A stretch of 63,345 bases of DNA, the filler included, from Jimgerdemannia flammicorona (lineage: Eukaryota), in assembly GCA_003990765.1 (NCBI GenBank). It is 2 parts of 2 records of this genome, joined end to end, with 100 filler letters (N's around TTAATTAATTAA, not from the genome) between each part and the next. Parts side by side here need not be neighbours in the genome. Positions count along the whole stretch, not along the records: positions 31,729 to 63,345 come from RBNJ01000385.1; 1 more part is not named here. One strand, 5' to 3'. The notes beneath the pieces are model-generated. The model did no database searches and was not told where the DNA came from. It saw nothing but the letters and a program-made list of their open reading frames with translations. Each line of letters starts with the position of its first letter. The stretch's first letter is position 1. The position numbers and the translations under genes were made by a program. Positions 23,289 through 63,345 of the stretch are shown in pieces.

Positions 23289-23291
23289 ACT

Positions 23292-37290: not shown

Positions 37291-37375
37291 TGGTGGCTCG
37301 GTGGAACACTACTGTCTTTCTATAGCTCACTGAGCCACGCTAGTGATCTTGAGGGCAGTAGCATTACTTTGTTGA

Positions 37376-38556
37376 CTAGTCATGATACTTCTTGATTCAG
37401 TTTCGGTGAATGGTAGTAGGGATGATTGTGCCTGGGGGTTTTCATAGCCAAAAGGTGGTTCCTTTTATATATTGCACCAGGTAAGGTCCTTCCCACTTAG
37501 GCTCCAGCTTTTGTGACCATGAAGCTTCTACCATATTCCGATACACCAGGACTTTGTCTCCTATCTTGATAATCTCCAGGGGCTTGTGAGTCTTTTCCGC
37601 ATTATTCCGTTGCAATGTCTGCACCTTGTTTATGTAATCCTCAGCCTTCTTCCACATTTGGTGCAGTTTCCGTATCTCCATGTCCACTCGTTTCCATATA
37701 GCATCTCCATTGTTCCTTGAGAACTCTCTTCTCCGAACAGCATTTCTTGAGGGGTGAAGTGGGTACTTTGTGATCTGATATCCCGGAGAGCAGATAATGC
37801 TATTGGCAGATAGTGATCCCAGTTTTCATAGTTATCACAGATCTTGGCGATAACATTCTTGAGGGTCTTGTTGGTCCTTTCTGCTTGTCTGTTTCCTTGA
37901 GGGTAATAGGCTGTAGTCCGAATGTGCTGGATCTTGTATTTCTTGTAGAGAACCTCAAAGAACTGGTTCACGAATTCTGTTCCTCTGTCTGTAGTTACTT
38001 GCATTGGGGTCTTGAACTGGCAGATGATTTCTTTATAGAAGAAATCGGCAATTGACTGTGCATTGGCTTCCTTGAGGGGTCCTACTTCTATCTACTTCAT
38101 AAAGAGGTCTACGATGACAATGATGTATCGGTTGCTGGTCAAGGTCAGAGGTAGGGGGCCAATTACATCTATTGCTATGTGGGCAAATGGTATCGGTTCT
38201 ATATATGCTGATCCCAGGGCTTAGTTCTGTTGGTCTTGTTTTTGTTTCTGGCATTTGTCACACGTTTTGACAAATTGTCTGATATCTTTCTCCATTCCTG
38301 GCCACCATATTATTCTTCTTGCTTTATCATATGTATTGGTTCCTCCTAGATGGCTGAGTTCATGTACTGATTTCATTGCTTGCTCCTTCCTATGCTCTAG
38401 TATAACTAGTAGTTTTCCTTTTCTCAGTATTTCTCCATTGGTTTCGAATTGTTTCCATGTCCTGTTGATAATTGTTTGTATCCATTCTTCCAGATGTTGG
38501 GGCATCTTTCGCTGTCCCAGATATGTGATTATTCTGTAGTAGAGCTCCTTATTCAT
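37376..38556 (-). pseudogene. E3 integrase, separate frame with its own ATG
   Basis: MNKELYY, VHELSHLGG, WWPGMEKDIRQFVKTCDKCQK, VTTDRGTEF and KLEPKWEGPY. Confidence 0.9.
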
Positions 38557-41500: not shown

Positions 41501-42538
41501 TTGGCTTTCCGTGGCCGTTTCCATCTGTTTTTCCACCGGGTTCTTCTTGGGTCTTCCTGGTGGTCTCTTGTAGGGTTCCTTGCGAACATCCTTCTTGGTA
41601 GTCTGTGCAGGGTAGGCCTCCCATTCTTTGTCTGACTCTCCAATTTCCTCGAAGGTGATGATGTTGGCCTGTTTCTTGTTTTTAGTAGCATTGCTCAGCT
41701 GGGCCTTGCGCTTAGTTTCACTCATACATTCATATGAGTAGTGGCCTTCTTCTCCACAGCTATAGCAGGTACCTTTCTTCTTATCTGAGGTGGCAGCAAA
41801 TTTCTGAATCGGGCAGCGATCTCTTCCTCTAATTTCTTTTACTACATCCCCTAGGTGAGCAGTCATTTCGGCGAACTGCTTGGCAAGCTCCTCCATGGGG
41901 TCGCTGTTTCTCTGCTGCTCTGTAGCTCTCGTTTGAGGTGTGTTTCAATTGATCATTGTGGTGGGGATCACACTGATTGCCTTGGGTGCTTCGATTCTAA
42001 CTCCAGTGACTCTTTCCATTGTATGGTCTTGTGGGTGTCTGGCTATCCAATACTGCTGAGCATAGGTGACCTTCTGTGGCAGATCCAGAACTACTGGTGA
42101 TGAGTGAATAGCCATAGCTATCTCTGGGTGGACTCCTTTCATGAAGCTTGCTTCGGCTACTTGATCTCGGATAGCATCAGCATAATCTGCGAGAATTATC
42201 TGATATCAGATTCAGGTGTAGAATGTGTTTGGATCCTCGCTCATTCCTTGGCATGTTGTATTGAGCTGATCCTTCAGGGCTTGCTTAATCTCCTCTATGT
42301 AGTAGGTATTTTGATGCCAGGTCTTCTGTGCTGTCAGTATGGCATCAGCATCATTTCCTGCATGGGTTGCAGCTGTGAATGCTGCTCTGGCAGGACCTCG
42401 TAGGCTGAAGGGCATGAGGGCTACTTGCTGTACTGCTGACAGGGTTCTTACAGCGGCGTACTGCTTGAAATCATCGATGAAAGTGATGATTGATTCATCT
42501 GAGGTATATCCATAGAATACTGGTGGTCTCATATCCAT
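38549..42538 (-). pseudogene. E3 gag-protease-Zn motif-dUTPase-RT-RNase H polyprotein
   Basis: CYSCGEEGHYSYEC; AIIDTGAGG; AAGMDIA, GVIDSDYIGEI and RGKKGFGS (dUTPase, ~40070-40490); VYVDDVII; LQTDASAQGLGAVL. Confidence 0.94.
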
Positions 42539-45354
42539 CTTGTCTTGGTTTCTTGCCTTGGTTTATATGGTTGTTCAGGTGGTGGCAGTTGTTCGTTGTT
42601 CAGCTTGAAAGTGAGGGATTCACTTGAATCACCAGCCAATGGGCACCAAGTTGTAATGTAGTGGATGCTTACTCTTGAAAGTACGTCGGATTTCTGTATC
42701 TTGAATACTTGATCTTCTCTGACTCCTTGGAGTCCTTGGGATGCAGGGGTGGGTGAGTTTGAAGTGTATCTGCCCGCAGGCTTACTAGTTCCTTTGCTAT
42801 CTCTTTGCTTTAGAACTATTTCGATCTGAGGTTTATTCACTCGAAGATACTGGGTTATTTATACAAGTTTTGCTAACTATAAGGTGGCTAAGTAGTGAGT
42901 CATTCTGCAAGTATCAGATCTTTCAACATCTGCTAGTATTTTGCTGATTGCAAACATTCTAACATCTCCTAAATCTTTGCAAATGTTAAAGTTTCTGCAC
43001 TTCGCAGAATATGACTGCTATTTATGTGGCTAAACTATATTGGGAATCGGATTCAGGTACCATGATCAAATGTCTAATTTCCCTGTTTCATGTTACTAAT
43101 TCAGATCAACCATCACACTGTCTTGTTATCTCTTAGATTACTTATAAGGAAGTATGTACATATAAGTGAACTTAACTGACTTTATTTTAGAGAAAATAAG
43201 AAGGATATTTATACAAAATATAATTCAATAATTGCTAAGATATAAAGCTAAATATAAATTTCAATAACTAAAACAAAATACCAGAACAGAAAAAACTACT
43301 AAGTTCCAGAGTCAGTACTGATGGTTGTACAGGTTCCAAATACTGGTATAATTCAGTATTACATCAAAATGCTAGTACTGGAACAATTCTGCATCACCTC
43401 AGAATACTGGTGCTGGCATTATTTAGTATCACATCAGATGCTAGTGCTGGCATTATTTAGTATAACCAAGGGATTTAGAGTAGAATGTTCAGGACTATGG
43501 GAGCTTTATCATCAGAAGTCAGAATATCTTTGAAAGAGATGAGGTCTGTGAATTCATCATCATCATGCATTTCATAAATATTGTATGAGATAATATCATC
43601 ACTGATGACATCATTATGTTCAGCAGTAGAGAAATTAGGAACAAGGAGATCTGTGCTCTCCAGTCTATGAGGTTCTCTTTCACAAAATAGGGAACAAATG
43701 TGGGGTCTTGGGGAGGTCTAACCTGGATGATTGGGTCTTGGAATACTGAGATCAATCCTTGTAAGAATTGGTCTGAGTTGTTCTGGAGGATGGGGTGCCA
43801 GAAGTCTTCTACTTCATCACTATTGAGAGTGATAGTGGACTGGGCTTCTATAGTCACCCTGGCTTCTAGTACATTGATATGGTGAGATGACAGGTCTCTG
43901 AAATCTAAGACTCTAACATACTCCAAGTTGAGGATTGACCATAGTATATGTCTGAAGATCTGATGGATCTTCTTAGCTATCCTTGTCTCATGTATATCTA
44001 TGGTAGTGGCATCTTGTAGCTCTTGAGAGCTGGCCTGTGAGAACTTCTGACAGAGAAGGTTTCCTATTTCATACTTCTACCACATTTGGAGGCATTCAGT
44101 AGTAATGGTGATTCTTATTTCCATTTCGCGGCAGTAGAGGATATAGTGATAAGGGTCACCAGTACCCAAGTTAATACTAGGAGTTCTTCTTGAGCAGGTC
44201 CTCATAGCACTTCTGATATCTTGGAATATTCTTTCTTTGACCAAGATACCTTAGTGGTTCCTTGACCTTGAGATTTGGTGGGTAGCAGACATTTTATTTA
44301 TAGTAAGTCTTTAAGCTATTTTGGGATTGGTGGGTCTTGTTGGCTGCTGTTACTGCAGTTTCTTGATTCTTTTTATATTCCTCAAGATACTTGTACTGTG
44401 GTCACAATAACTCATAATTGGTCATCATTGCTCATCTCATATGCTGTATGATCTTCTTGTGCTCTGATCTGGTAGCTTGCAAGGAAAGACTGTCTTCTGT
44501 ACTGATGTCATCATTCTGGGGTTACTATTATAGTATAAAGTTGATATCTTAATATAATAAGTTAATAATAGTTAATATAAAGTTAAGTAATATAAAGATA
44601 AGAATTTTTTTTTATTTTTTAACTTTAAATAAAGATATATATTTTCAATTTATTAGTTAATAAGTATTAAGTTCTAATGTAATAAATTTATAACTTAAAA
44701 AATATATATTTTAAATTATTTTTAACTTTAAAGGAGGTAATAAAATATACTTAATAATTATAACTAAAGATATTATTACTAAACTATTAAAATAAAACTA
44801 AAATATAAAATAATATATATATTTTATTATTTTATTATTAGAATACTTTTATTTTACCTTATTTTAAGTTATTTATATAAGTTTAGAGTATAAAGTTTAA
44901 GCTATTATTTATAATATTAAGTTAAATATAAAATATATTATATTATAGATATAAATATATTTTACTAATTAATTAAAAATATAAATTTAAAGTAAATAGT
45001 AATTATATATTATTTTACTTTTAAGATAAATGTATACAACTACTAAATTTTTTAAAAAAATATATTAATTGGTTATATAGTATTATTATTTAATTTATTA
45101 TGATATCTTAAATATTATTAGAAATCTTTAGAAATTTTAAATTTATAAATGACAACTTTTAGAAGAGTAAACCTCTATATTAGTGACTAAATAAAAATAT
45201 CATAGTATAAAATACATGTATATGTACAATGAAATCGAATTGACTTAGTAATACGTCATCGATTTGTAATGTTTCACAGAAGTCAAAATTGGTCTGGCTT
45301 CTACCGTATTTGGTCCGCTGCCTAAACCACCACCACGAAATACGCCAAACCACC

Positions 45355-48300
45355 ATGCCCAAAACTCATAAGGTCCGACCTACTACCTTAAATAGAAAGC
45401 GACCAAAGAACAAAGACAAAGGTCAAGTGATTGAAATGGATTTAAGGAGCCAAAAGAAACGTAAACTCTCAGATAGTGAGGGGGCCGGTGAAGGTAAACA
45501 GTTACCTTGAAACTGACTTGTTCTTTGCAAGTCTCTCGTGTGATAATGTATGCTTTATGCACCAACTCAAACTTACTGTTTCAACGGTCGCCAACCGGCA
45601 ATCACCTACGCCAGGTGCGTATCACTTATACTAACAACTATATTGGTGTAGTCTGAGTGTTTGGTGCACTCTAGGAAACGATTGTGGCCTGTTTCTCCTA
45701 GTGGTCGTGATTTGACTTTGCCTTTGATGGATTCGAAACTTGCCGTCTTTTATTCACAGCCCCTCTTAACTCTCTTCTCTACGCACAGGACTGGAGGACG
45801 AGGCCGGCGATGACCCTGTGATAAAAAAGGCCAGAACGTCCAAAATAAGAGGTAAGCGAGCAATCATTCGAATGGTTAGAGTATCAATTTCTATTCGGTA
45901 GTGCGTTTTCAGCAATGGGAGAAAGGGGCTAGGAACCATAGTTACGTAGAGCTCCATATTCTTGAACGTCCAGTAAAGAGAACATATCTGATCATTCGCG
46001 CTGGTTTCTTCACTTCACGGCATCATCGATCTCAGGAAAGGCGATCTCAGGAAAGGCGTCGAGGAATGAGCATGGTAGTGGCAAGGTTGGAGCCAAGAGT
46101 TATCGGCGTAAGGTGTATAACCTTCATCTCGTTCTATTTGCCGGTTGCACTCCTAACATTCTCTGTCATGGCCACATAGAAGCCCAAGACTGTCCTCGTC
46201 CCACCCAAGAAAACTCCTTCCGACGTTGACGATGACCAGATGACGGAAAGCAGTAATATTGCTGCAGAGGTAAAGTAACAATGAATCTCTCCTCCGTCCT
46301 AAGCCTGACAGATCTCTTTTCGCTTGCTATTCTAACATTATCACAAATACCGTTTGTTGCATTATGTGATGACTATGTAGGCGTCCGGAACACCAGTCAC
46401 GGATTTGCAAACGTCATCCGAACTCCAAACCCAGGTCATTTAATATCTCGGACGCGTTGTCTTACCTATGAATAACAACCTGTCAATTAAGCCTCGCTTG
46501 CTATTCTAATATCCTATCACCCTGTTATGACTAATAGATGAGGGGAACCGCGGGAAAACGGAAGCAGATGGATGTTGGGTCCGCTTCCAGATTGGATGAG
46601 GTGAGATTTCTTTCATATTCTTCTTATTTCGACCAGTTTTACGTTTGGTTCTAACTTCCCATCATGAATACTCCTGACATCCCTGTCTCCGTACACCCAG
46701 AAGCAACAAACCATTGACCTGAAGGCTTTTCTGGAGCATTGCAAGTTAGACAAATATTATGACAAAATCAATGAAGCTGGCTGGAATGACGAGTCTGCTG
46801 TTGCGGAGTTCCTCGATTATACTGAAGATAGTCTGAACGAAGTTATTTCCATGACGGGAATGGGAATTTTTGGTCGCGACGCCGTTAATTTCAAGAATGG
46901 TATACAAAAGCTTAAAGGTATATAGTAGACGCTTCGAACTTCCAAATTTATTTTTCTTTCGTCGTCATTTGATTTCTTAAACGTTCAATTTTGCTCTTAT
47001 CTAACTGTACCTCGCTCACCATTGTCAACCAAGGTACGTATTTGAATGTTTGGTGCACCTCTTTTCACTTCTCCTTATTTCGTCAAATATGTAAATCTGC
47101 ATTTCTTTCCTCATTTACTTAACGGTCCACTCTTTCTATTTCATTTTTGATTTGTGTTGCGCGCATCTGTCCGTCCACCCATTCCGACTATTCCAGGTAA
47201 TATATTTCCCTTTGCTTAAATTGTTATATTTATTTCGAGAAAAACCTACTTTCTGAACTGTCAGTGGACAGCCTACTGCTTACTTTTTTTTCATTTATAC
47301 AAGTGGTATAAAAGAACATATCCTAACTCATTTCCAAACCACTCACTTGCAATTTCTTTTCTGTCTCGTATCTCGCTCACACCCCGTTCTCCATCACCGT
47401 CTGCAGCTCCCCAAGGTATACATCTTTTTGCCCTTTCATTTCGTTATCTGCATCGAATGTTGGGCGAGCGGCGTTTGTCTGCTATCAAGCGTGGCTTGCG
47501 TTTACACAATGCTTCGTTTTGCTATTCTTCTCGATTTTTCATTGCTGGATTTGACATTACCGGACACATTGAATTTTCGCGTTAAAGAACGTATTGTAAC
47601 TCTTTCCTACCTTTTGCTTGTACCTCATTCTCCTCAATAGAGCCTCTTCCCAAAAAGGCACACTTGCATGATGGACTCACCCCGATGGAGGCGGTTGAGA
47701 AAGCTGAGCTTACCAGTAAAGCCGTAATGAACGGTTCCCTCAAGCTTTCCAGCCTCAACTTGAAGGAAAGAGTTACCCTACTTGGGTTCTTAGGTCGAGA
47801 GGTCCCCTTTGAAGAAGATTCGTTTACGATGCTGTTCAGAACTGCCTGCGACCTCAAAAACAAGAAGATTCCGGACATCATATCTGTACCCCGGAGCAGC
47901 ATTAGCCTTCCTGTGATCAATATGCCGAGCCTATTTGTCAGGGAGTCTTACAGAAACCTTTATAAATATATTGGCAAAAACTTTACGACTACGCCATCGC
48001 GGGAGACAATGAATCGCATCACCGTCACCGGCACATCTGGTATCGGGAAGTCGGCGTTTCTGGTATACTTTACTATCAGACTTCTTGCTGAGAGCGATGG
48101 CGAAAACCCTCCTATCATCATTTTTCACGCAAAAGGTGAAGATTCAGAATGCTACGCCTTTGGAGGGAAAACGACTTTTCGTGCTGGAAGTATTATTGAT
48201 TTTGCACCCTTGCTCAGACTTCCCGAAACGTGGTACTTGGCGGACAGTGTCTCGCATCCCCGGCTCCGTAAAGCCAAGACAATAATAGCGGTATCGCCAA

Positions 48301-49359
48301 AAACTCTCAATTCTAGTGCCAACGACTACCAAGAAGTTACCAAAAAGTCACCAATTATATATTACATGGAGCCCTGGATACTCGATGAATTAGAATTGTG
48401 CCGCAGCAAAATCTTCACAGATGTGCCAAAAGACTTTATGGAGGAACTTTACAATATGATCGGTGGTGTGCCGAGATACGTCCTGGAAGCTGCAGCGACT
48501 ATATTAGTCCGAGATCCGAATAATAGGGATGGTGCTGTGAAAGGCGCATGTTCTCGTGTCAACAAAGCTATTGACGAAGTTAAGAAAAAGTCTATGCTTC
48601 TGCAATGTGTAGCTCAGGCGAGAGAATATTTGGTTCAGCAGCCGTCTGCTCCACCATTGGCCTCTTCCTCTCGATCACACAACATACCACTTCGAATGGG
48701 CGTCAAACCACATCCTAGAGGAAATTCACAATCAGCTGGATGCCCAGACATGGGAGGAAGTATTGAAAGATCTCGTCAAAGAAGATAAAAATCACAGCGT
48801 CAGGGGACGTCTGTTTGAAATGTCCGTGATTCATATCTTTCGGAAGGGTGGCTATGTCTTCGATGTCAAGAATCTCCAAGATAATACGTCCAGTCGGCCC
48901 ACGATTCCAAACCATCCGCCATACGAAAATTTTCGAAAGCTGGATCTGTCACAATATGACAAACAAAGAGAAGGGATGAAGAAGAACAAGAAGTCGAAGA
49001 AGGCCGAGAAATTACTCCTTCCAACGAATCCTAACTACCCTTGTGTCGACCTAGTCCTAACACCCGACAACATGTTCCAAGTTACAGTATCTTCACAACA
49101 CCTTATCAAACAAACCCCTTTAAAAAATATTGTCGATAAAATCCCGAACTCCGACAGAAAATCTCGGCTATATTTTATCGTACCGGCCGACGTCTATACT
49201 AACTTCCGGCTTCAAAATTACGACACCGAGGACGGTAATGTCGCCAAGAATGTACCTAAGGCTATAACAGATCGCGTTGAACAATGGGCTCTGAAATTCG
49301 ATCTTAGGTCTGCAACAATTGGTAAATCACCTGGTGTGGGAAATGGCGTGCCGTATTAA
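45355..49359 (+). CDS. Multi-exon Crinkler/CR-type gene: low-complexity N-terminus, SAM-like domain, P-loop NTPase, PD-(D/E)xK restriction-endonuclease-like domain. Frameshifted at ~48633 (pseudogene or sequence error)
   Basis: ATG at 45355; GT-AG exons including 46538-46600, 46701-46917 (LKAFLEHCKLDKYYDKINEAGW...IQKLK) and 47407-47415; last exon from 47641 with VTGTSGIGKS, WYLADS, YYMEPW...EL and GGVPRYVL, then in the +1 frame FSSRLLH, RGRLFE, PNYPCVDLV, FQVTVS and LYFIVP. The 5' exon structure is only partly resolved. Confidence 0.85.
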
Positions 49360-49589
49360 GGGAGCACGGCGAGACCGAAGAGGGACGAGGTGATAATTAG
49401 AAGTCATATCAGTTATGTAATACACTCGCTTGTATTGATAGAATACCTTTCTATACCTTGTATATTGAGTATTTTAGTTAATAATAATGAGTTTGTATAT
49501 GTTAAATATAGTTTATCGGTATATTGTGATAGTTGATTTGAATTAGGAACAAGAATTGAGGATGGATATATTTAATTACAATATAGCTA

Positions 49590-51090
49590 GCTAATTTGTA
49601 TAAATATTCTCAATATTTAGAGTGAATAAATCTCAGGTTAATCGAGTTTAAATCTCTTCTGATAGTTTAATAATGAGATTAGATATATATTATCTATAAC
49701 TCTGAGAAGTTAAGAAGATTACAAATATAAGTAACTCTGAGAATTAAGTATGTAAGATAAAGAAATCTACTATATATTGCAGATTATAATTATATATATT
49801 AAGTTATAATATATAGTTTACTAATATTTCTAGTATTTTATATTATTAGTAATAAATATATTATATACATAGGTAAATAATATTTTAAATAATAAAAAAA
49901 ACTTATCTTTAGAAAGATTTTAGTAATAAAGTAAAGTCTGAGTGACTATGAAAAAAAAAGGTTATCATATAATTTTAGAGTATATCTAAATCCTATTTAT
50001 ATAATTATTTACTTTTTATATTTATTTATTAATATTAAATAATTATTTTATATAAAAAGAAAGAAAGTACATAAGTAAATTAAAAATAAAAATAAAAATA
50101 AACTTTATTATATTTATAAAATATATGAAAATAATTTTATTAATCTAAAGTAACTTAAAAAGCTACTTATATATATAGAAATAAATATATATCTAATTAT
50201 CTAAATTATATATTTATTATTAATATATTATATTAAATATAATTTTATAAACAGATTAAAAAGATTAAGTTCTTCTTTTTATAAACTAATTTATATAATA
50301 ATTAGTATATATTTCTAAATATTTAAAATGAATATTATATTAACTAATAAATATTAAAGTTAGATATTAGACTTTAAGTTATATTTTATTTATTAAACAA
50401 GATAAAATATATTAGTATAATAAATAACATAACTACTAAAGATAAAAAAGTAAAAAGAGATTAGCAAAGTAAATTACTGACTAAGAAAACCCTAAATAAA
50501 GACCAGTAAGATGACTATCTTAAGAAGGAAGCTTGAGAAACTATTTTATTATAATTATAAAGAGAATAAAATATAAAAGTAATATTAAAAAAACTAAGAT
50601 AGAATATATAATTATTTAATACTAATACTAAAGAAATTATATATTTATAACTAAATACCAACTAAGTAATATTAAATAAATAATTCAATATAGCCTCATT
50701 AATAAAAAATAACTAGAGTAAATAAAAAAAATAAAAGAATAAAGAAAATATTTAATTACTTAATTACTTAAATATTACAATGTATGATATAAAAGAGAAA
50801 CAGAAAATAGATATATGATCACAGGCATTTTACAAATATAGAAACTTTACAAATATAGAGATTTTATAGATATAGAGAATCTATACTTATAAAAAATGAC
50901 TCATAGGAAATATAGTTATAACTTGGTTATCGTATAGTTAGCAAACTTATATAAATATCCCAGTATCTAGAGTGAATGAACCCCAGGTTAAAAAAGTTTG
51001 AGCCATAAACTGGTAGTCTGATAATGAGATCAGACAGATACTACTTATAACTCTGAGGAGTCAAGAAGAGTTATGGAAATCTACTATATT
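49590..51090 (+). repeat. Two diverged copies of a ~170-bp dispersed repeat (~49590-49770 and ~50940-51090)
   Basis: Shared blocks tataaatat...tagagtgaat...caggttaa...ataatgagat...tataactctgag...aagaaga. Confidence 0.6.
50354..50778 (-). mobile_element. Decayed 3'-UTR copy (T0) of the telomere-tailed LINE family
   Basis: ttaaagttagatattagactttaag followed by sequence alignable with 51372-51830 and 53351-53770. Confidence 0.6.
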
Positions 51091-51173
51091 TTCTTAGTTA
51101 CATATCTACTATATTATAATATTTATAAAACAAAGTCTATTATAAGATAGCTACTAAAATTATATAGAATATA

Positions 51174-51335
51174 TAGTACTTCTAATAAATTAAATCAAAG
51201 ATTTAATTTTATTTGATTTGAATTGAATTAAAAGTTTAATTCAATTTAAGTTTTAATTTGAACTCTATTTTTGAAATATAATAACTAAATGAAAACATAT
51301 TCAAATTTAACAATCTTTGGCTTATTATATTTCTC
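51174..51335 (+). mobile_element. Decayed left end of the hAT family
   Basis: TAGTACTTCTAATAAATTAAATC resembles the TIR; downstream sequence aligns with 16330-16410. Confidence 0.6.
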
Positions 51336-51371
51336 TAACAAGCTAAAGATGGTTAGAGATATAGTTAGAAA

Positions 51372-54300
51372 TAGGGTTAGGGTTAGACTTTAAGTAATAA
51401 TTTATTTTTTGTAGAATAGATAAGATATATTAGTGTAATAAATGACAAAGCCACCAAAGATGAGAAGAACTATTTTTCAAAAGTAGTTAAAAATATTATA
51501 GTAGAAATAATATAAAGAGTAGAAGAAGATCAATGAAGTAAACAACTAGCTAAGAAGAAACAATAAGGTTAGAGAGACAACTATCTAAAGAGACAGACTG
51601 AATGAACTATTTTATTGTAGCTATAAAGAAGATAAAAATATAAGTACAGATAAAGAAAACAAAATAAAATATATATATATTCTAGAACAATTACAGAAAT
51701 AGATAATAATAAGTAACTGATATAAATAAATAATTTGATATACTCTCAACAATAAGAGAACAAACTATGATAGATGAGAAGAGAGAAGAGAAAAAGAAAA
51801 TATATAATTACTCAATCACAAAAGTATCTTAATAATTTCAGTCAGCTAATTAGAAGTTGGTTACCAGAATTATATATCAATAAAATAGTAAACTGTCTCA
51901 TAAAGAGTATGAAGAGGGTTGGTATAAGATCCTTCTAATATTTATTATTAGTAAACTAGTTAAGTTATTTATAACTAAAATCACCTTAGAAGGCCAAATA
52001 TAAATCATCAAGAAGACTATATATATAAAGTTGGCTATGATAAAACTGATCTCCTCAGAGATAGAGATAGAGTTGGTCAAAGTAGCTATAATACTATAAG
52101 TATAAAACACATAAGCTAGGGAGAAAGAAAAGGATATCAATAGCTTGACTATAAGTGGCTATAGAATATAATATACTGAAAAAGTGCCTGAGAGGAGGAG
52201 ACCCAATCTTATAGTAACTAGACTTGAAGAAAAGGCTAAAGGAAAGAGTAAAGCAGGTGAGTCTTGCAAACCTGAGAACAAAGATTCTAGTATTAGTCAA
52301 GAAAGTTAAGTCAAAAGATCTAATATCAGAACTTGTCAATAAAGATATGTGATAAATTACTTATTAAGGGAGCTGATAAGATTGTTATCAGACTTACTAT
52401 ACTAATCTAAATAGACTTGAATATATAGTAAAGGTCTAATATATGATAAAGAAAAGAAGAGAGACAAAGAATCAAATTGTCAAACAAAGGCCTACTTGAA
52501 AATCTGACTGCTCAAGTGATAGCATCATTAAAGATCTTCTTAGAATATTTTAATATATGAAGTTCTATAGTAGTATTCAGATAAGAAGTATTAAAAAGAG
52601 ATAGACTATTTTCTAACTAAGGTATAATAATATTTATACAATTACTAACTTAATATTAGTGATCAGAAAGAACTATAAGTATATTAGAAACTAAGAGTTC
52701 ATTCAACTTTAGCTATATTTTATAATGTAAGATCAATAAAGTTTAATCTCTTATTGATATATAGTATAATAAGAAGGAGGTCACAAGAATAACTCACTCT
52801 CAATTAATACAGTATAGTCAGTTAGATTAATAGCTCTATATTATTTACCAAGAGTTAATCTTCATAGAAGTTAACTATCCTCTGACTCTCAGTAGTAGGG
52901 TTAGGGTTATAGTTAGGCTTCAAGTAATAATTTATTCATTGTAGAATAGATAAGATATATTGGTGCAACAAATGGTAAGACTACCAAAGATGAGAAAAGA
53001 AAAACAGTCAGTACTACCTTGAGATATCTTAAATTACTTATAAAGTAGATAAGATTACTATAGCTATTGCAAAAGAAGTAAAAGAAGGCCAGTGAAGTAA
53101 ATAACTAGCTAAGAAGAACAACAAGGCTGGAGAGGTGACCACCTAAATAAATAACAAAATAAAGAAAACTAGTTAAAATACATTGATGTTCTGTACCAAC
53201 TATAGTAAAAAGTATTAACAACTGAATATCAAATGGCTAACATGGAATAAATAATCTAATGCTCTCAATAATAAGGTGAAAACCCAAATAAATGAGAGAA
53301 GAGAAAAATATATGACTACTTAATTACTTAAGCATCTTCATATTTTCAGTAAGAGTTAGGGTTAAGCTTTAAGTGAGAGTTTTATTCATTATAGAAAAGA
53401 AGAGATATATCAAAGTAACAAACAGTAAAGAGTCTGAAGATGAGAAAAGCAAAAGAAAGCCAGCAAAGTAAACAACTAGCTAAGAAGAATAAAATAAAGA
53501 CCTGAGAGGTAACTACCCTAGGGATGTATTAGATTTACTATTTTGTCACAGCTATAAAGATAATAAAATACGGGAAGCAAAGAGAGAGAAGCTAATATAA
53601 AAATACATATAAGCTCAGCACTAACTACAGAAACAATATTGATAACCAAATACTAAGTAGCTAATATGAGACATATAATCCAATATACTCTCAACAAGGA
53701 ACCAATTAAGACAAATAAGAAAAGGAAAGAAGTAAAGAAAATATACAATTACTCAATAACTTAAGCATCTTTATAATTTCAGTCAGACAGAACCTGACCA
53801 CAAGATAGCTACAAGAATTACACATAGTGTTGATAGTATAGTAGGCAGTCTCATAAAGAGTATGAAGAGGGTGGGCATAAAGTTCCTTCTGCCATTCATT
53901 AATGATAAACCAGTCACATTGCTCACTACCAGAATTACCTTGGAAGGTCAAATACAAACCATTAAGAAGACTGTACCCATGGAGATATCAATGATAAAAC
54001 TTGTCTCTATAGAGATAGGAGTTGAGTTGGCCAAAATACCAAATGCCAAATAAGGGCAGAATGAACAAGCTGGGGGGGAAAGGAGAGTATATAATCAGCC
54101 CTACTTAACTATAAATGGCTATGAGATATGATTTATCAAATGAGGGCCTGAGAGAAGGAGGTCCATTCCTACAGTAACTGATCTCAGAGAAGAGACTGAA
54201 GAAAGGAGTGGAGTGAGCAAGTCTTGCAGACCTGGAGACAAAGGTTCTAGTACTAGTCAAGGAAGTTAAGCCAGAAAGTCTAATACCAGAACTTATCAAT

Positions 54301-55120
54301 AATAGAACTGAGAAGATACATGATAAAGTACTTGCTAAGGGAGCTGATGGAGTTGTTGTCAGACTTGCTACACCAATCTAGATAGGCTTAGAATATATAG
54401 CAGAGGTCTGATATATAATAGAGAAATGAAGAAAGGCTAAGGATTGAACTGCCAAGCAAGAGCCAGCTGGAAAACCCAACTGTCCAAGTGATAGCATCAT
54501 CAAAGATCTACTTGGGATACTTTAATATCTTAAGCCTCATAGTAGTGCTCAGATAGGAAGCTCATAGAAGTAGAAGGCCATACTCTAGCTAAGGCTTAAT
54601 AAATATTTACATATATGATGGCCAGCTTGACCATTGGTGACCAGAGCATACTATGGACAGAGTAGAAACCAAGAGTATATTATATTTTGTAATGTAAGAT
54701 CAATAAAGTCAAATTCTTTAGTAGTATACAATATGTCCAGATACATATAGGAGGAGGGTTGTGGGCATCTCACCCAAATCAGCACAGTATAGTCAGCCAG
54801 GCCAACATAACTGCACTTCTTGAGATTGAGCTCCATACTGTTCACTGTAAGCCTATCCTTACAAAAGTCAACCATTCTTTGACCCTTAGCAGTGGTGCAA
54901 GAGATAAGAGCAATATTGTCAGTAATGAAGAGCTTGAGAGAGAAGTTATACTCCTTAAACTGCTTATCAAAAGAGGTGGCAAGGGGGTTGATAAAGATAT
55001 CAAAGAGCCAAGGAGAGAGGAGAGAGCCCTGGAAGAGGCTGTGCTCAGTAGAGTGATAAGGTCATTAACAACTATCTGATATGAATAGTGATTGAAGGAA
55101 GAGGGTGATCTGGGCTTCTG
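51372..55120 (-). mobile_element. Head-to-tail array of three 5'-truncated copies (T1 51372-52895, T2 52896-53350, T3 53351-~55120) of a second LINE family with (CCCTAA)n 3' tails
   Basis: T3 encodes LFQGSLLSPWLFDIFI, FI(T)D(N)IALI, MELNLKKC, YMYL(D) and WSPMVKLAI. The three copies share an alignable 3' UTR. TTAGGG repeats at 51372-51386, 52896-52917 and 53351-53366. Confidence 0.8.
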
Positions 55121-57760
55121 CTAAATTGGCTAGACTTTTAAAAATTTGATAGATCTTTTGGCCCTAGAGGGAGTAGAGGACTGAAGGTTGATGTAGTAAA
55201 GCTGGAGGTGGTGAAGTTGCAACAGGTGTTAAGAGAGGAGGAGAAGATGCAGGTACAGAGTTTGGCTATACAGTTGTACTGATAGGGGCTGGAGGAGGGG
55301 GAGAGGCCCTCTATGTACCTTTCAAGAACCCTTCAGGCAAGAAGAGTGAGGCAGAGATAGAAGAGAGGCCTGGATTTTAATAGTGTGCTGGTATATGGTC
55401 TATAAGACATTCTAGGCTTATTAAAGGAGAGGTGGAGTAGTTTGTAGAGTGAGGAGGAGGGTGGGACTGATGCTGCTATCATTGAAAATACTTTGGAGAA
55501 TTAATATTCACCACAAGTAGATGAGCTGAGCAGCTTGGTGATACCAGTACAGGAGGAGGAGATTTATTATGTTTTTGTCACAATTATGCTGAACATGGTA
55601 CCAGAAGAGGATGGTCTGCTCTGGGACATTTGGAAGAAGATGGTGGGGTCCCTGGAGTGTGGGGTGAGTAGATGGCACTTTATAACTTAGTACTATAGTC
55701 AGAGAGGTGAGTGGGTGAGTAGGATCTGAGGCTGGTGGCCCTGCTTTTTAAGGACAAGAGCAAGTGAGAGGACTAGAAGAACTGGCAGCCTATCATACTT
55801 CTGGACATAGATAGGAAGTTGGTCACTAAGGTGGTAATAGCAAGGCTGCAGAAGATGGCCCAGCAGGTCTTGGGTGAGGAGCAGTGAGGTTTTATAGGGG
55901 GCTAGCTCATTAGTAATAGCATGACTTAAGTGTATAGCATCATTGAAGGGGTGTAAACCTGTAGACTAGATGTGAGATTGGTCTTCTTGGATCAGGAGAA
56001 GGCATATGACTATATTCAGAGGGTCTGGTTGGTGAAGATACTGGATAGAATTGGTATCTCTCAGCATTTCTGAGTGGCAATGATCAGCCTATTAGAAGGA
56101 AGTAGAGTAGTACTTATATGCAATAGACATTGAGGGGTGATGTTCTCTCTGGGTAGGGGTATTCTCCAGAGAGATCCATTGTCTTCTATTTTGTATGCTC
56201 TATCCTTGGAGCCATTGATGGATAGGATTCAGCAGAAGGTAGTGGGGTCTCAGTATTTGGAATTGTGTGGAAAGTGAGAGCCTTTGTAGATAATATGGTG
56301 GTTGCCCTAGGATTAATTGCTGATGTCAAGAATCTCTAGAAAATGTTAGATGGTATGAGATATACTCTGAGACTAAACTTAACTAGCATAAGTGTGAAAT
56401 GATGATATTAAGTAATAGCCTGGAGAGAGGGAATATCATTGGAACAATTGTCTCTACTGGAGAGACTGTGAGATACTTGGACAGCTATCTTTTGGTATAT
56501 AGGTCAGTCCTATCAAAATCTTGGTAGGAGCAGTGGATGGCTATCTGGAGGAAGGCCCTGTAGAGTTGGGGAGGCCACCACTTATCTTTAGTAAGATATG
56601 TTTCAATTTTGAATAGCTACTGACTGCCAAAGTTGTAGTATTTGACATATTATCTGGATCTTTTAGGCTGAGTGGTGAAGAGGCTATTGAAGCTGGCCAA
56701 AGATTGGATCTGGATTAGGAGGAGGAGTCTGATTAGCTGAGAAATCTTATTACTACCAGTGGCTAGAGGAGACCTTGAGCTGGTTGACTTCTCAAAGAGA
56801 CTAAATTGTCTGAGAGTATGGTGGCTGAAAAGAGCTATGGAACTGAGAGATAGTAGTTAGATTTCTCTGATAAAGTATATCTGGAAGATAAGGTTCTCAC
56901 TAAGAGGCTCTACAGGAGATCTACTGTCCTTTATTGGGCTTCAGAATAGTGAGTGTATGAGATATAAGAGATTCTGGTAGAGAGTAGTAAATGGGGTACA
57001 CTATATCAAAATTCACTGTTAGAGAGATGAAGAAGAGATACATACCTTAGGGCCTGGTGATATAGAGAGAGAATTACATATTGTTGAGGGGTACTCTTCT
57101 AATTAACTTTAATATTGGCAATGGGGTTGAGTGCCAGAGGGGGTTGGGACAGAATGTATGATCTAGCAGTTAGCAGATAGTGGATATTGGGGAGGAGTGG
57201 TACTGAAATGATATCTGGGCATAGAGTGCAGAGATAAGGAGATGACTACCACCTAAGTACTAAGTGGTCTGGTGGTATATACTGTCAAGGAATGTAATGT
57301 TCAACTTTTACTTAGGCCACTTTATAGAAAAGAGAAGCTATGACTGTGAGGAGTGTTATAATGTAGGATAGAAAGAAGAGTTGGTACAGATATCAGAACA
57401 TTGGCTGAGAGAGTGCAAGGTACTTAGTGACTTTTGGTTAGTTGTTCAGAATTAATTAGGGGTTGTAAGAAGGGGGGATAATGAGAGGAGTCAATAGGAG
57501 GATCTGATATATAGTTTTGTGGGGAGTTAGAAAGGAGTGGCTCACTATAGATTGGGTATTGACTATATAGAGATAGGATACTGGCTATTTGTTTTTGAGG
57601 AAAGGAGGTTTTTGGGTTTGAAGAAGTGACTATTGAGGTAGAAAGGGTTGGAGAAGTGAGTGGTAAGGTGGTATTTAAGTATGAGAGTATCAGGGGGGAG
57701 TCCCCTATGGAAATTAGGTAGTGGGAGGGGATACTATATATATAGCTGATACTGCACCTT
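55120..57760 (+). mobile_element. 5'-truncated L1/Tx1-type LINE copy B (RT and C-terminus), decayed
   Basis: LLFKDKSK..D.KNWQPIILLD, FLDQEKAYD, GRGILQRDPL and VRYLD; homologous to copy A. Confidence 0.88.
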
Positions 57761-57849
57761 TCTCAGTTACTACTCACGTTATATATACTTTTACAATATA
57801 CTTTCAGAGTATTTATTGGAGAAAGATACTAAGGTCATAGCAATCAACA

Positions 57850-60800
57850 AGCAAGCTAACATATATATTAGGTCAGGTGGACCTGGAGCCTTTAACTGAC
57901 AATATGTTAGATGAGGGTATAGATTAGGGATAGGGTCTTTCAGTGGTCCAAGTAGGCAGGACAGTTCAGGCAATAGTAGTAGCACTGGGAGAGAAGTAGG
58001 AGGGCAGAAGAGAAAGAGCTTTGCAAATATGCTGAAGACTAGTAGATGGTCTGTTAGATCTCATGGTAGGCAGATGGAGGGGAAGGGAAAGCAGAGAGAA
58101 GGAGAAGTGGGAGATATAGCTCATCAGTCAGTGGGTGGAAGGGCTGGTGGAGTAGCTGCTGGGAATAGGAGAGGGATTACTAATAGTAGCATAACTGAGA
58201 ATCTGGAAAAAAATCCAGATATAACTATTGATAGTGGAATAAAGCAGATGGGACCAAAGAGGAAAGGGGACCTGGCTGATAGTGTGATGGGGCTAGCAGT
58301 GGCATCATTACTCAAGAAGTAGAACTCAGAGTTTGCAGCAACCTTATGCTTCTGGGACTTAGTAGTGATAGCAAGGATGGTCCTGGAGATTATCTCAGAG
58401 CAAGTGACTGGAGCTATCTCAGTGATGTTTCTGAAGGAATTGGAGGGGGTTGTAGTGGGTTATAAGGAGGCAGGTCTACTAGAGGAAGCATTGAAGACTA
58501 GAGTGATAGTAGAAGAGGTGGTGGTCCCTATGGTATAGGGTTTGAGGTGGGACCACAGAGTGGTTCAGTTACTGGTAAAGGAGGTACCTATGGTGACAAA
58601 AGTTGAGACTAGGAGGAGGGTGGAGGAGGTAATGGCAGAGTATAGTGATGTGGTCAATATTTGATTCCAAATGTATGAAGGACCACTTTCAGAACTGGAG
58701 ATATTGATATTAGGATTAGACTGGCAGAGAGAGAGGCCACAGAGAAGATGAGTGACTGGCCTTTAGTTATGTTGTGGGGGGCCTTCATCTGTAAGGTGTC
58801 AAGAGTGAAAGAGAGTGAGGAGGAGGAGGAGGATCTGTTAGAGGCTCTAGAGGAAATGAGCAGGGCAGTAGAGTAGAGGGTGAAGGTCTGGAAGATGTAT
58901 ATAGAGTCTATACATTTGGAAATTGTGGATGGAAAACATATTCACACTGACTAGAGGTAGTGAGAGAGGGCTCAGGAGTGCAAGAGACAGAGAGAGTTGA
59001 TGGTAAGCCTGAAAGGAGGGGTGAAGAAGAATGCTGGTGGAGCTGAGGAGTCTGGAGATACCAAAGTGGGTGTCTGGGCTAGTAAGAGAGAAGAGGATAG
59101 GGAGGAGGGTCTGGATGGGGCCAAGAAGATGCCTAGCAATGACCCTTATGCAGATGGTATATTCAAAGTCTGGGAAGAAGTATTAGATGACACTCTCTCT
59201 CTTATCAGGAGGAGTCCAGCTGAGAGGAGCAAGGCAGTAGAGGATGTGCAAATATGTGGTGTCCAGCAAGTACACTTTGGAGTTCCTGACATGGTAAAAG
59301 GGGGACAGGTGGTGGCAGTTGGCAAGGATGAGCTAGTGGATGTCTAGGAGGAGGAGTGGGATGAGACTGTGAGTATTGGAGCTGATACTACAATGCTGGA
59401 TACTGGGAGGCCAGCAATGTCAGAAGAGAAGGAGGTGAGAAACCTACTGTGGATGTGCCAGATTATAAACAACTTTGTTGCTAAAGAGCAGGGAGAAGTG
59501 GACCTGAGAGTGATGAGCAAGGAGGATTGGGCACAGATCCTATTTAGTGATGGGGTAGTAGAGGCACTGAAGGTGGAGGTGCTTATAATTCTTCTTGAGG
59601 AGGAGGGATATGAGATTGATAAGGAGAGGGTGGCCTAGCTGGTAGTTGTTGCTAGTGAGCAGGCCACCTTCTGTTAGGTAGAGTGTCATGGGCTGAAACT
59701 CTGGCAGGAGGCCTGCCTGGAGTATTATGAAAACTTTGAAGAAAAGGAGAATGGGGAGATGGCCAAACTTCTGGTTAGATTGGAGACCAAGGAGGCTGAA
59801 GAGGAGGGATTGGCTGCTGAACATAACTTGGATATAGCACAAGAGGGGAGGGATGTGGATTTGTAGAGGATGAGCATGACCCTACTTCTAAATATTATTC
59901 TCAATAAACAGTACAACTAATATTTTTTTTCTGAATGTGAATAGGTTACAGAGATCTGGGTAGTGAAAGAACATTTTCACTTAGCTTAAGAGATTAGAGG
60001 CTGATCTCTTTCTGCTGCAGAATGTACATTGTGAGGATGATGTGGATCAAGTGGAGTGGACTAGAGAATGGAGAGGAGCTATAGCTTGGATTAGCAAAGT
60101 GGCAATTTTGGTGCAGAGAGATAAAGGGGATTTAGGTGGAATCAGGAGCTGAGAAGACTGTTTTGTATAGGGGGAATGGTGTCGACCTGGGTGGGAGCCA
60201 GTGAGAGTTGGCTCTTACTACTGCCTGGCAGCTAGGAGTGAGCAGATTGCATAGGTTAAGAGTCTTTTAAAGGAGGGCACATTCTTGAAGAATGGGGTGG
60301 ATGTTCTGGGAGGTAACTTCAATATGGTATAGAATCTTCATAGATAGAACTGATAGAGAAAGGAGTACTAATGGAAGGAGTGGCAGTCCAAATATATGAG
60401 AGGAGGTGGAGAACCTTAGCTCCTTAGGAAATAGAGGCAGAATACAGTGGGGAGAAAAGAGAATTTATATATTGGATGAATGGCCTAGGTATAAGGATTG
60501 ATTGGATACTGACAGCTAAATACTGGGGCATATATATTTAGAGGACTTTAGAGGTAGAGTGGTATCTATGGACAGATTATTGGGGACTGTTAGGGTAGGG
60601 GCAGTTTGGGGGAAGTAGAGATGGATCTAGACATTAGTACCTTTACTCCTCTCAGCTAGCTGAGAAGGTTTTGTATGACTCTTTGGTATAGGCCATTTAG
60701 TGAAGATCATAAGCTGGGTATATGAGGGTTTGCAAGTGGATATCCAGTAGATGAAGTTGAAAGAGACTTTGAGGGTTCACTGGAGAGAAGTTGGTAGGAA

Positions 60801-63345
60801 TGCTGTGAGGCAAAGAAGGAAAAGAGTGAGGTATACTTCCAATAGGTTGGTTAGATTACAGATGGAATTGGCTGATTTGATAAATTCTGGTAAGGTGGAT
60901 GATTGGAGGTTAGTATGAGCTAGACTAGAAGTAATTGAGTTGCAACAGGTATTAAGAGAGGAACTGGAGATGAGTATGAAAGGAATGATAGCTAGATTGA
61001 GATAGCAGAGGCTTGAGGAGGAGATCCAGAGAGTCCTTGCAGCAACTAAGCTTAGTATAGCACCAGGAGAGGATGGTCTATCTTGGGACTTTTAGAAGAT
61101 GATGGTGAGGGTCCCAGGGGTGTTGGAAGAGATGGTGGCCCTCTGTGATCTTATTCATCTGAGGGATCAGTGAGTGGGAGGAAAGAACCTAGAGCTGGTG
61201 GCCCTCTTGTATAAGGATAAGGAGAGGAGAGAGGATTGGAAGGACTAGAGGCTGATCATACTTCTGGATATAGACAGAAAGATGGTGACTAAGATGTTCA
61301 ACAGATATTAGGTGAGGAGCAGTAGAGCTTTATTGGTAGCAGACTTATTAGAGATGAGATGGTCTGGGTCCATGACATCATTGAAGGGGCAAGAGCTAGT
61401 AGATTGGATGAGAGACTGGTCTTTTTGGACTAGAAGAAGGCCTATGACCATATTCAGTGGGTGTGGCTGGGCAAGGTGCTGGACAGAATAGAAGTTTCTC
61501 TGCTATTTCAAGCTTCTATGTTGAATCTGTTGGAGGGTAGTAGAGCAGCACTGATGTGTAATGGTCACCAGAGTATGGCATTTCCCTTAGGGAGAGGAGT
61601 TCCTCAGAGGGATCCACTGTTTTCTATTCTATATACTCTTTTATTGGAACCTTTGATAAATAGGATTCAGCAGAAGATAGCAGGGCTCACTATTTATAGT
61701 ATAGTGTGGAAGGTGGGGACCTTTGCAGATGAAATGGTGGTTGGACTTAGATCATTGGTAGATGTTGAGGCTCTTAAGGAGATGGTAGAATGGTATAAGG
61801 TACACTCTAGAGCAAAACTCAACTGGCATAAGTATGAGACAATGGTGTTGGGAAATAGGTTAGTGGGAGGAGATGTCATTGGAACAATTGTCCCAGCAAT
61901 AGAAGTAGTGAGGTATCTGGGCATCTTCCTTTTGGTATATAGATTGGTCTTGTCATGAGTGTGGTGAAAGAGGAGGGTGGCCATCTGAGTGGAGGTACTT
62001 TGAGACTTGGGGGGTTGCCACATCTCCCTGGTAGGCCAAGTTTCGATTCTGAATGTTTACTGGTTCTCTAAGCTGTAGTATATTGTCTATTACTTAGACT
62101 TTTCAGCTTGGATAGTGAAAAGACTGATGAGGCTAGCTAGGGATTGGATTTGGACTAGGAGGTGATCCCAGATCAGTTAGAATACCCTTTCAATACCAGT
62201 AGTTCAAGGGGGGTTAAGACTGGTGGACTTTTCTAAGAGACTGCACTATCTGAGAGCTTAGTGGTTGAAGTGAGTGGTGGAACTGAGGGGAGGGGGATGG
62301 GTGCCATTGATGAGAAGGTGTGGGAGATGAGATTCTCCCTAAGAGAGTTCTTGGGAGATTTGCTTTCCCTGGTGAACCTGGGTAGAAGCCATAGGCTGTG
62401 GTATAAAGGCTTCTGATGGAAGATAGCAGATAGAGCACACTGCATAAACTTGCACTAACATAGTAATGAAGAGAAAATACTGTGGAGACCAGCTATATGG
62501 AGATGGGACAGACTACTTCTAGGGGGAACTCCTTTTATTGAATTTGATATTAGTAATGGAGTAGAGTATCAGAGGGGACTTAGTCAGGATCTTTGGCCTA
62601 GCAGTTGGCAAGCAGTAAAGATTGGTGAGGAGTGGAATTGGGTGGGAGTCTGGAAATGGAGTATTGAGGTATGGAGGTGGCTTCCTCCCAAGTACTAGGT
62701 AGTATGGTGGCAGATGCTATAGAGGAATGTTATGTTGAATTTCCATACTGGACATCTGATGGATGGTGGTATACTGAAATGTATGGCATGCTACAATATA
62801 GAACAAGTTGGGGAATTTGTACAGATACCAGAACATTGGCTAGAAGAGTGCAAGATTCTGGGGGACTTTTGGATAGCAGAAGGGGACCTTTTGGATGTGA
62901 AGAGGAGACCAGATGGGAAGAGAGGTTGCTGGAAAAATTTGAGAACTAGATTAGTGGGTGTAGTAGACAATTAATGGCTCACTGTAGGGTGGGTTTTAGC
63001 TGTATAGATAGGGCTGGCTAGATATGGGCTCTTTGTTTTTGAGGAGGAGCAACAGCTGGATTTGTAGAAGAGGTTGTTACAATGAGAGGGATTAATGGGA
63101 GATATACTGATAGGGTGGTGGATTAGATGGGGTCTCCAGGGTGGGTGTCACTACTGTCTGATGAAAGAGATTTATAGACAGAGTGGTGGACAGATGGAGG
63201 TAATTAATGATCTAGTGGTCTTTAATTAAGAGGAGGTATGGTGGGGGGGCCCTTCTTGGGGGATCAGATAGGAGTGGGCTTAGTGTATAATATATAAGAT
63301 AGATGGCTATATTAATAATGGAAGGAGTCCCAGAGACTATAAAAA
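57850..63345 (+). mobile_element. Near full-length L1/Tx1-type LINE copy C (ORF1 ~57900-59865; ORF2 ~59900-63100), decayed, with internal deletions
   Basis: ORF1 fragments match copy A (QVVAVGKDELVDV, GADTTMLD). ORF2 has DLFLLQN, VLGGNFNMV, APGEDGL, GRGVPQRDPL, GTFADEMVV and VRYLGIFL. Confidence 0.9.

What the first reader, a model, noticed from the sequence alone, without database searches (positions are those of the whole stretch)
51372..55120. Head-to-tail array of LINE copies ending in telomeric repeats: a possible fossil chromosome end built by a telomere-associated retrotransposon
Seen: three copies (plus a more decayed fourth at 50354) of a LINE family distinct from the L1-type one. 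Each ends, on its sense strand, in an AATAAA-like signal, a short spacer and (CCTAAC)n. On the + strand this reads TAGGGTTAGGGTTAG (51372-51386), TAGGGTTAGGGTTATAGTTAGG (52896-52917) and AAGAGTTAGGGTTAAG (53351-53366). Each 5'-truncated copy is joined directly to the TTAGGG tail of the next, with no spacer or evident TSD, and all have the same polarity. Established: TTAGGG is the common fungal telomere repeat, and this polarity (G-strand 3' end abutting the element's 3' end) is that of elements reverse-transcribed onto chromosome ends (Drosophila HeT-A/TART; Penelope-like Athena/Coprina). Telomere-repeat-targeting LINEs also exist (TRAS/SART, MoTeR). The RT here has LINE-type motifs (QGSLLSP; FIADD decayed to FITDN), not Penelope-type ones. 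Inference: an undescribed LINE lineage that primes on or targets telomeric repeats; the array may record rounds of end erosion or breakage and healing next to an effector-like gene.
Basis: partly seen in the sequence, partly recalled or inferred. Interest (0 to 1): 0.8.

Follow-up and report, generated by a model that had tools for sequence, protein, structure and literature searches.

The report
Old copies of a telomere-targeting LINE
Four dead copies of a jumping gene lie in a row here; its younger copies sit stacked at almost every chromosome end checked in this genome, and it uses a different cutting enzyme from the telomere-targeting elements described so far in fungi.

Summary
The array is real: four decayed, 5'-truncated, same-polarity copies, each ending in 1-3 telomere repeats. 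Three are directly joined; the fourth is separated by about 590 bp.

Young copies define a 5.15-kb LINE with ORF1 and an ORF2 carrying APE endonuclease, RT and a C-terminal Cys/His motif, and no poly(A) tail. It lies 5'-end-outward at 27 of 28 telomere-capped contigs checked, and copies decay with distance from the telomere. A telomerase gene is present. Relatives at 25-35% identity end in the same repeat (17 of 28 informative families). So it works like TRAS or MoTeR, but it is not RLE-type like MoTeR, FoTeR and Cnl1, and it is not Penelope. Nine literature searches found no description; no named clade references could be put in the tree.

'Fossil end' is not established. A 91%-identical paralog of the neighbouring gene has the same array and a live telomere about 24.5 kb away, and this contig stops 8 kb past the array. 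It is more likely the old inner part of a live subtelomere. The scan found this family before on other pieces of this genome.

The parts
53351..55096 (-). Copy 1 (distal): 3' third of the LINE (RT domains 4-7, C-terminal region, 3' UTR) with telomere-repeat tail at 53351-53366; cut off at element position ~3393 by an L1-like element
   Evidence: 72-75% identical to a young copy, 0 of 91 CpG kept
52896..53350 (-). Copy 2: 3' ~430 nt, tail at 52896-52917; joined directly to the tail of copy 1
51372..52892 (-). Copy 3: element position ~3611 to end, tail at 51372-51386; joined directly to the tail of copy 2
   Evidence: 62-67% identity, 0 of 68 CpG kept
50785..51371 (.). Spacer between copies 3 and 4: piece of a high-copy repeat plus a piece of the AATTG-rich repeat; not part of the LINE
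   Evidence: (1612 candidates genome-wide), family D7
50354..50784 (-). Copy 4 (proximal, most decayed): 3' ~430 nt with degraded tail
   Evidence: 62-64% identity
47586..49359 (+). Neighbouring gene, P-loop NTPase-type and effector-like (Crinkler/RHS-like is an inference); read as two overlapping frames, 47586-48788 and 48613-49359; member of a 7-copy family
   Evidence: (weak RHSP P-loop hit, E 0.011, below cut-off)
55102..63345 (+). Decayed L1-like elements of another family (one 5'-truncated piece to ~57650, then a long copy running off the contig end); common inside the telomeric arrays in both orientations
   Evidence: 23 opposite and 13 same-orientation segments

Best explanation
The four copies are old members of a telomere-targeting APE-type LINE (5.15 kb; ORF1 about 500 aa; ORF2 about 1020 aa with APE, RT and a C-terminal Cys/His motif). 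Shown: the element accumulates head to tail at chromosome ends, 5' end outward, under a plain (TTAGGG)n cap, with 1-5 repeats between copies. New copies are distal and old ones proximal. Ends broken inside a copy are re-capped. Inferred: the RNA ends in 1-3 CCCUAA units just past AAUAAA. That tail anneals to a G-strand 3' end, made by an APE nick near the inner edge of the telomere tract or left by erosion or breakage, and primes reverse transcription. Telomerase supplies or restores the cap. The window's array is the CpG-eroded inner part of such a stack, built outward from just behind the NTPase gene. It is more likely still subtelomeric (about 60%) than internalised (about 40%).
For: 27 of 28 contigs picked only for a terminal telomere tract hold the element 5'-outward (21 by fetched DNA; 6 by motif or hit position). 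18 of 30 contigs with CpG-intact 5' ends carry a terminal tract, and the other 12 are array pieces. 41 of 41 multi-hit contigs are single-strand, as are 32 of 32 in the listed part (the sets overlap). CpG retention falls with distance from the telomere: medians 0.71, 0.37, 0.23, 0.01; rho -0.70, 64 segments. 81 tails measure 4-34 nt in variable phase. Junctions to truncated copies show a mean microhomology of 1.8 nt against 0.7 expected, 21 junctions, p about 5e-5. Tandem neighbours are not sisters in 2 of 2 pairs. APE residues E, Y, D, N, H are invariant in 45 of 45 aligned proteins. TERT motifs T, 1, 2, A, C and E were found at C902. The paralog locus C708 has gene, array and telomere in the same order.
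Against: No RNA end, nicking site or transposition was observed. Telomerase healing followed by insertion and RNA-tail priming use the same template sequence and cannot be told apart here. Short tails may reflect loss of long internal tracts, as argued for MoTeR. Within the window the age order is only partly monotonic (c1 74, c2 79, c3 72, c4 64% over the shared 3' end), and AT-rich decay beside genes is general here. One locus has an inverted piece (L016), one has a degenerate tail of about 70 nt (L099), and C2302 has no copy in its last 2.9 kb. Arrays are also copied by segmental duplication (C412). None of 26 near-full copies has both ORFs intact. No telomere was seen on this contig or on paralog contig C2899. 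The 64 segments are not independent.
Confidence: 0.75

Rival explanations
1. Fossil end: the array was built at a telomere but was later internalised by end-joining, fusion or duplication, like MoTeR relics in Pyricularia.
For: The window's copies are among the most decayed seen (0 CpG kept, 62-75% identity). There is no telomere on the contig. Relics are documented for MoTeR (passages of 10.1101/845669 and PMC8381367).
Against: Copies as decayed lie 6-24 kb from live telomeres (C708, C3035, C6053, C7267, C1752). The paralog locus C708 is subtelomeric. The contig ends 8.2 kb distal, inside a repeat. About 349 3' ends over at least 38 telomere contigs need no internal sites. 5 of 35 contigs hit by copy 1 are known telomere contigs.
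Confidence: 0.35
2. Endonuclease-independent end healing: the RNA tail primes directly on broken or eroded chromosome ends through 1-4 nt of homology, as proposed for Athena/Coprina and HeT-A, and the APE is secondary.
For: 19 of 81 tails are joined to 5'-truncated copies and 32 to other DNA, with tails only 5-34 nt long. There is excess microhomology. AATAAA lies 1-18 nt before the tail in 10 of 18 relatives examined.
Against: APE catalytic residues are invariant across about 25% identity. The same microhomology occurs under plain telomere caps (3, 3, 1, 3, 3 nt), so telomerase healing followed by insertion explains the junctions equally well.
Confidence: 0.25
3. The arrays are mainly spread by recombination (break-induced replication, unequal exchange) from a few old insertions, with little true targeting.
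For: There is an internal duplication in C412, and contig pairs with identical flanks (L011/L017, L014/L015, L012/L018). No copy has two intact ORFs. BIR is documented for MoTeR arrays.
Against: Neighbours are not sisters; copies differ by about 7% at non-CpG sites in a star-like tree; 5' junctions differ from copy to copy. The tail is conserved across the clade.
Confidence: 0.12
4. An ordinary dispersed LINE whose 3' end happens to carry a fixed GGGTTA-like motif.
For: The motif alone is at chance level in the window. Some relatives have tails next to unique DNA.
Against: Telomere enrichment, strict polarity, age gradient and variable tails.
Confidence: 0.02

Closest known systems
TRAS1 (and SART1), R1-clade telomere-specific LINEs of Bombyx
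   Same: Two ORFs, APE plus RT, inserted in telomeric repeats beside a telomerase gene. TRAS inserts on the C-rich strand (Introduction of PMC7265360).
   Different: SART1 ends in poly(A), which it needs for accurate priming; this element showed no poly(A) at 81 ends. Host is probably fungal with TTAGGG repeats. R1-clade membership was not testable.
MoTeR1 (Pyricularia), FoTeR (Fusarium), Cnl1 (Cryptococcus)
   Same: Fungal, telomeric tandem arrays, 5' end outward, short internal tracts, truncated copies re-capped, relics (passages).
   Different: MoTeR1 and FoTeR carry a C-terminal restriction-like endonuclease and group with CRE/SLACS and Cnl1. This element has an N-terminal APE, a separate ORF1 and no RLE motif.
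Endonuclease-less Penelope-like elements (Athena, Coprina; family 4 of Zymoseptoria tritici)
   Same: 1-3 TTAGGG units at the 3' end, 3' end pointing away from the telomere, truncated copies in tandem, telomerase present (passages of PMC4522978).
   Different: They lack an endonuclease and are Penelope-type. This element has a LINE-type RT and a conserved APE.
Tx1-1_ACar (Anolis)
   Same: A telomere-associated element of the Tx1/L1-like kind in a TTAGGG host (named in passages of PMC10088271; Tx1-clade elements are APE-type per PMC4640811).
   Different: Vertebrate host; no sequence was available here for comparison.
HeT-A / TART (Drosophila)
   Same: Head-to-tail arrays with the same polarity (recalled; abstract listing).
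   Different: They replace telomerase. Here TERT and plain repeats are present.

Membership tests
APE-type LINE (general) | ORF1 plus ORF2 with N-terminal APE and RT | tested here: met
   ORFs; RVT_1 E 2e-18; Exo_endo_phos weak, E 0.017, below cut-off; profile aligns to human L1 ORF2p residues 12-775, E 4e-39; catalytic columns invariant
TRAS/SART (R1 clade) | Insertion in telomeric repeats with fixed orientation | tested here: met
   27 of 28 telomere contigs, 5' end outward
TRAS/SART (R1 clade) | 3' poly(A) tail | tested here: not met
   none of 81 ends shows poly(A) before or after the repeat tail
TRAS/SART (R1 clade) | RT groups with the R1 clade | not testable with these tools
   No named R1 sequence was returned by any tool; the tree has unnamed outgroups only
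MoTeR/FoTeR/Cnl1 | C-terminal restriction-like endonuclease, no APE | tested here: not met
   no R/K-x-PD...D/E-x-K/T motif in ORF2; APE present
MoTeR/FoTeR/Cnl1 | Telomeric tandem arrays, 5' outward, short internal tracts | tested here: met
MoTeR-type relic | Internal chromosome position | tested here: inconclusive
   Contig ends 8.2 kb distal; paralog is subtelomeric
EN-minus Penelope (Athena/Coprina) | No endonuclease; Penelope/TERT-like RT | tested here: not met
   APE conserved; the 16 solved-structure hits are L1, R2 and group II/retron RTs, with no telomerase
HeT-A/TART mode | Telomerase absent | tested here: not met
   TERT exons at C902; the whole gene was not assembled or shown to be active
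Tad1 clade | RNase H after RT and poly(A) tail, as in RtPc5; variable across the clade | tested here: not met
   No RNase H hit; ORF2 about 1020 aa against 1312
Deceiver / Inkcap / L1-Tx1 clades | RT phylogeny | not testable with these tools
   Novikova et al. 2009 seen only as a citation; no reference sequences

The most novel reading that the evidence does not exclude
A large, undescribed clade of APE LINEs, spread across fungi and perhaps other microbial eukaryotes, whose RNA carries a copy of the host's telomerase template in place of poly(A). The tail changes with the host repeat (one TTAGG case, L196) and lets the element prime directly on broken or eroded chromosome ends. It would be a telomerase-mimicking end healer and a third origin of target-specific APE elements outside the Tx1 and R1 clades.
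Probability: 0.25. Interest if true: 0.8.

Novelty: new variant of a known kind. Interest (0 to 1): 0.6.

Why it matters
The fungal telomere-targeting LINEs found in the papers read (MoTeR, FoTeR, grouped with Cnl1) use a restriction-like nuclease. PMC4640811 places APE-type target specificity mainly in the Tx1 and R1 clades. An APE clade with at least 148 representatives at 50% identity and a shared TTAGGG tail would be a new and wide origin of telomere targeting. It offers a natural TTAGGG-directed nickase and RT to study, and a clean test of whether an RNA tail can stand in for the telomerase template. The stacked copies also date each chromosome end, and show ends breaking and regrowing next to an effector-like gene family.

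Tried and rejected
1. The motif count alone is not significant.
2. I first read 49582-49934 and 50933-51284 as a local duplication of the gene's flank. Rejected: it is a high-copy repeat.
3. A recurrent junction at one position of the L1-like element did not hold up: the junction sequences differ, and two of them come from one duplication in C412.
4. Four internal (TTAGGG)4 tracts have no copy nearby, so internal repeats do not always mark this element.
5. The pattern was one base too long; it was repeated.
6. The ORF1 homolog search found nothing, but its C-terminal domain matches 11 metagenome loci.
7. The Atlas search gave only unnamed RT/EEP clusters.
8. Name look-ups of 20 relatives gave two organisms: Hortaea werneckii, and an Artemia protein matching only the RT part.
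9. No structure model was obtained, so the APE fold rests on sequence.
10. The careful tree did not finish. The quick tree has no named references, and the window's L1-like frame dropped out.
11. RNA runs: no RNA holder was listed.
12. Microhomology test: 8 of 29 junctions were dropped for unaligned gaps.
13. Literature searches found no description of this clade. The library lacks most subscription papers and Repbase; no supplements were read.

Full report
Observation. Alone they are at chance level (7 matches, 5.3 expected), but they are the 3' ends of four aligned copies. Against a young natural copy, all four are on the minus strand: c1 53351-~55096, c2 52896-53350, c3 51372-52892 and c4 50354-50784. 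c1, c2 and c3 are joined tail to truncated 5' end. c4 is set apart by about 590 bp of other repeats. The RT piece of c1 is 69% identical to a young ORF2. The window is two contigs joined by a linker; the array lies on C385, which ends 8.2 kb distal to c1, inside an L1-like element.

The element. The genome (231 Mb, 35,354 contigs) has TTAGGG tracts at contig ends. Next to them lie young copies of a 5.15-kb unit. ORF1 is about 500 aa with no Pfam family over cut-off. ORF2 is about 1020 aa: APE, RT, then a C-x-C...H..H...C motif. The 3' UTR ends in AATAAA, about 13 nt, then (CCTAAC)n. A profile of ORF2 and 8 relatives aligns to human L1 ORF2p over residues 12-775 (E 4e-39) and to R2 over the RT. 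The APE columns E34, Y100, D127, N129 and H195 are invariant in 45 of 45 proteins, and no RLE motif was found. None of 26 near-full-length copies has both ORFs open; the distal copy on C52 has an open ORF1 and 988 open codons of ORF2. That the host is a fungus, probably early-diverging, is inference from CpG-depleted repeats, the repeat type and the gene content; it was not tested.

Where copies lie. Of 28 contigs picked only for a terminal tract (the listed parts), 27 hold the element 5'-outward: 21 by fetched DNA and 6 by motif or hit position. C2302 has none in its last 2.9 kb. Conversely, 33 CpG-intact 5' ends lie on 30 contigs; 18 carry a terminal tract and the other 12 are array pieces. 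All hits share one strand in 41 of 41 multi-hit contigs among the 53 examined; one inverted piece was seen elsewhere (L016). CpG retention falls from a median of 0.71 in the outer 5.2 kb to 0.01 beyond 15.6 kb (rho -0.70; 64 non-independent segments). New copies are therefore added distally. Tandem neighbours are not sisters in 2 of 2 pairs, and 5' junctions vary, which favours separate retrotransposition events. Segmental duplication also occurs (C412).

Junctions. Of 81 3' ends, 29 lead into the 5' end of a full copy, 19 into a truncated copy, 32 into other DNA and 1 into an edge. Tails are 4-34 nt in variable phase, with no poly(A); the caller stops at indels, and one degenerate tail of about 70 nt exists. 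Plain telomeres also cap truncated copies. At 21 of 29 junctions with truncated copies (8 dropped for gaps), the overlap with the repeat averages 1.8 nt against 0.7 expected (p about 5e-5, approximate null). This fits healing from a CCCUAA template, either telomerase RNA or the element's own tail. A TERT gene flanked by host repeats has motifs T, 1, 2, A, C and E (C902), so this is not a Drosophila-type replacement.

Relatives. A profile search gave 148 listed representatives (P0013-P0160) scoring 577 bits or more, most of them full-length; one named member is from Hortaea werneckii. Among 79 metagenome loci, 39 of 62 with a complete ORF2 end and at least 400 nt downstream have CCTAACCCTA on the sense strand, against 2 of 62 for the reverse motif. 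By family (60% identity, 78 loci, 36 families): 17 have the tail, 11 do not and 8 are uninformative. Of the 11, three fall outside the main 55-row clade (SH-aLRT 96, quick tree), one has an imperfect tail leading into the next copy, and one is capped by (CCCTAA)16 upstream. L196 has a (CCTAA)n tract upstream and a matching short tail; this is a single case. AATAAA precedes the tail by 1-18 nt in 10 of 18 relatives examined.

Fossil or live. The neighbouring NTPase-type gene has 7 full-length copies. Of the 4 with more than 3 kb downstream in view, 3 (the window, C708, C2899) have the LINE right behind the gene in the same polarity; C90 has none in the 20 kb fetched. C708 ends in a telomere about 24.5 kb from the gene; C2899 shows none in 16.4 kb. 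Copies as decayed as the window's lie 6-24 kb from live telomeres. About 349 3' ends over at least 38 telomere contigs need no internal sites. I put a live subtelomere at about 60% and a relic at about 40%. Relics are known for MoTeR, so either outcome has precedent.

Mechanism. Shown: telomeric position, polarity, distal addition, short variable tails, re-capping, a conserved APE and a TERT gene. Inferred: RNA ending in 1-3 repeat units anneals to a G-strand 3' end, made by an APE nick near the inner edge of the tract or by erosion or breakage; reverse transcription follows; telomerase restores the cap; CpG decay and L1-like insertions erode the inner copies. The share of nick-dependent and nick-independent events is open.

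Comparison and novelty. It works like TRAS and MoTeR. It is not a member of MoTeR/FoTeR/Cnl1 (RLE), EN-minus Penelope or the HeT-A mode, and it lacks the poly(A) of SART. Membership of R1, Tx1/L1, Deceiver or Inkcap could not be tested. Papers seen: passages of PMC12857005, PMC10088271, PMC9674265, PMC3411680, 10.1101/845669, PMC4522978, PMC10502011, 10.1101/2023.05.24.542141, PMC4640811, PMC8381367 and PMC4427930; abstract and Introduction of PMC7265360; Novikova et al. 2009 only as a citation; no supplements. Nine searches found no description of an APE-type telomeric LINE in fungi. Earlier notes of this scan on other pieces of the genome reach the same reading; they are not independent support. 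Verdict: a new variant of a known kind, interest 0.6. This window's array is a decayed example, and its 'fossil' status is unresolved.

Noticed in passing
window 31629-31728: Artificial linker (N runs around TTAATTAATTAA) joining two length-sorted contigs; the two halves of the window are probably not neighbours in the genome.
   Followed up: yes
window 47586-49359; paralogs C708, C2899, C90, C9748, C11065, C23768: A 7-member NTPase/effector-like gene family, weakly RHSP-like, with the telomeric LINE directly behind it in 3 of 4 informative copies. Trypanosome RHS genes are also subtelomeric and retroelement-linked (recalled).
   Followed up: partly
L135 (C164) and L136 (C902): Two divergent TERT genes. 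C902 is intron-rich and flanked by host repeats; C164 lies in gene-dense DNA without CpG depletion, and may come from a second organism in the assembly.
   Followed up: partly
L062:3229-3310, L063:4410-4480 (C412): A copy only about 30 nt long (signal plus tail) sits directly under a longer copy; the whole junction is duplicated 11 kb apart.
   Followed up: partly
L196: Metagenome relative with a (CCTAA)n telomere upstream and a 5-mer-type tail: possible covariation of tail and host repeat.
   Followed up: partly
L186:3628-5374: A relative cut by an inverted copy, with a telomere tract at the contig's right end.
   Followed up: no
L152 3' end; L149 and L183: Relatives with another repeat after the tail region (TTTGGTTC units), or very AT-rich members with no TTAGGG tail.
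   Followed up: no
L077-L080 (C517, C959, C1149, C1381): Internal (CCCTAA)4 tracts with no copy of the LINE nearby.
   Followed up: partly
L066:7238-9945 (C708): A telomere joined directly to a truncated L1-like element: an end healed inside another transposon.
   Followed up: partly
window 22111-30530, 36413-43117 and 2438-13043: Decayed LTR elements, two of them with a dUTPase-like frame between protease and RT (25396-26355, 40172-40657; likeness recalled, not searched).
   Followed up: no
element 5' end, e.g. L068:100-140: The 5' end starts with a telomere-like stretch, and variant repeats cluster at the junction, recalling variant repeats at MoTeR 5' ends.
   Followed up: partly
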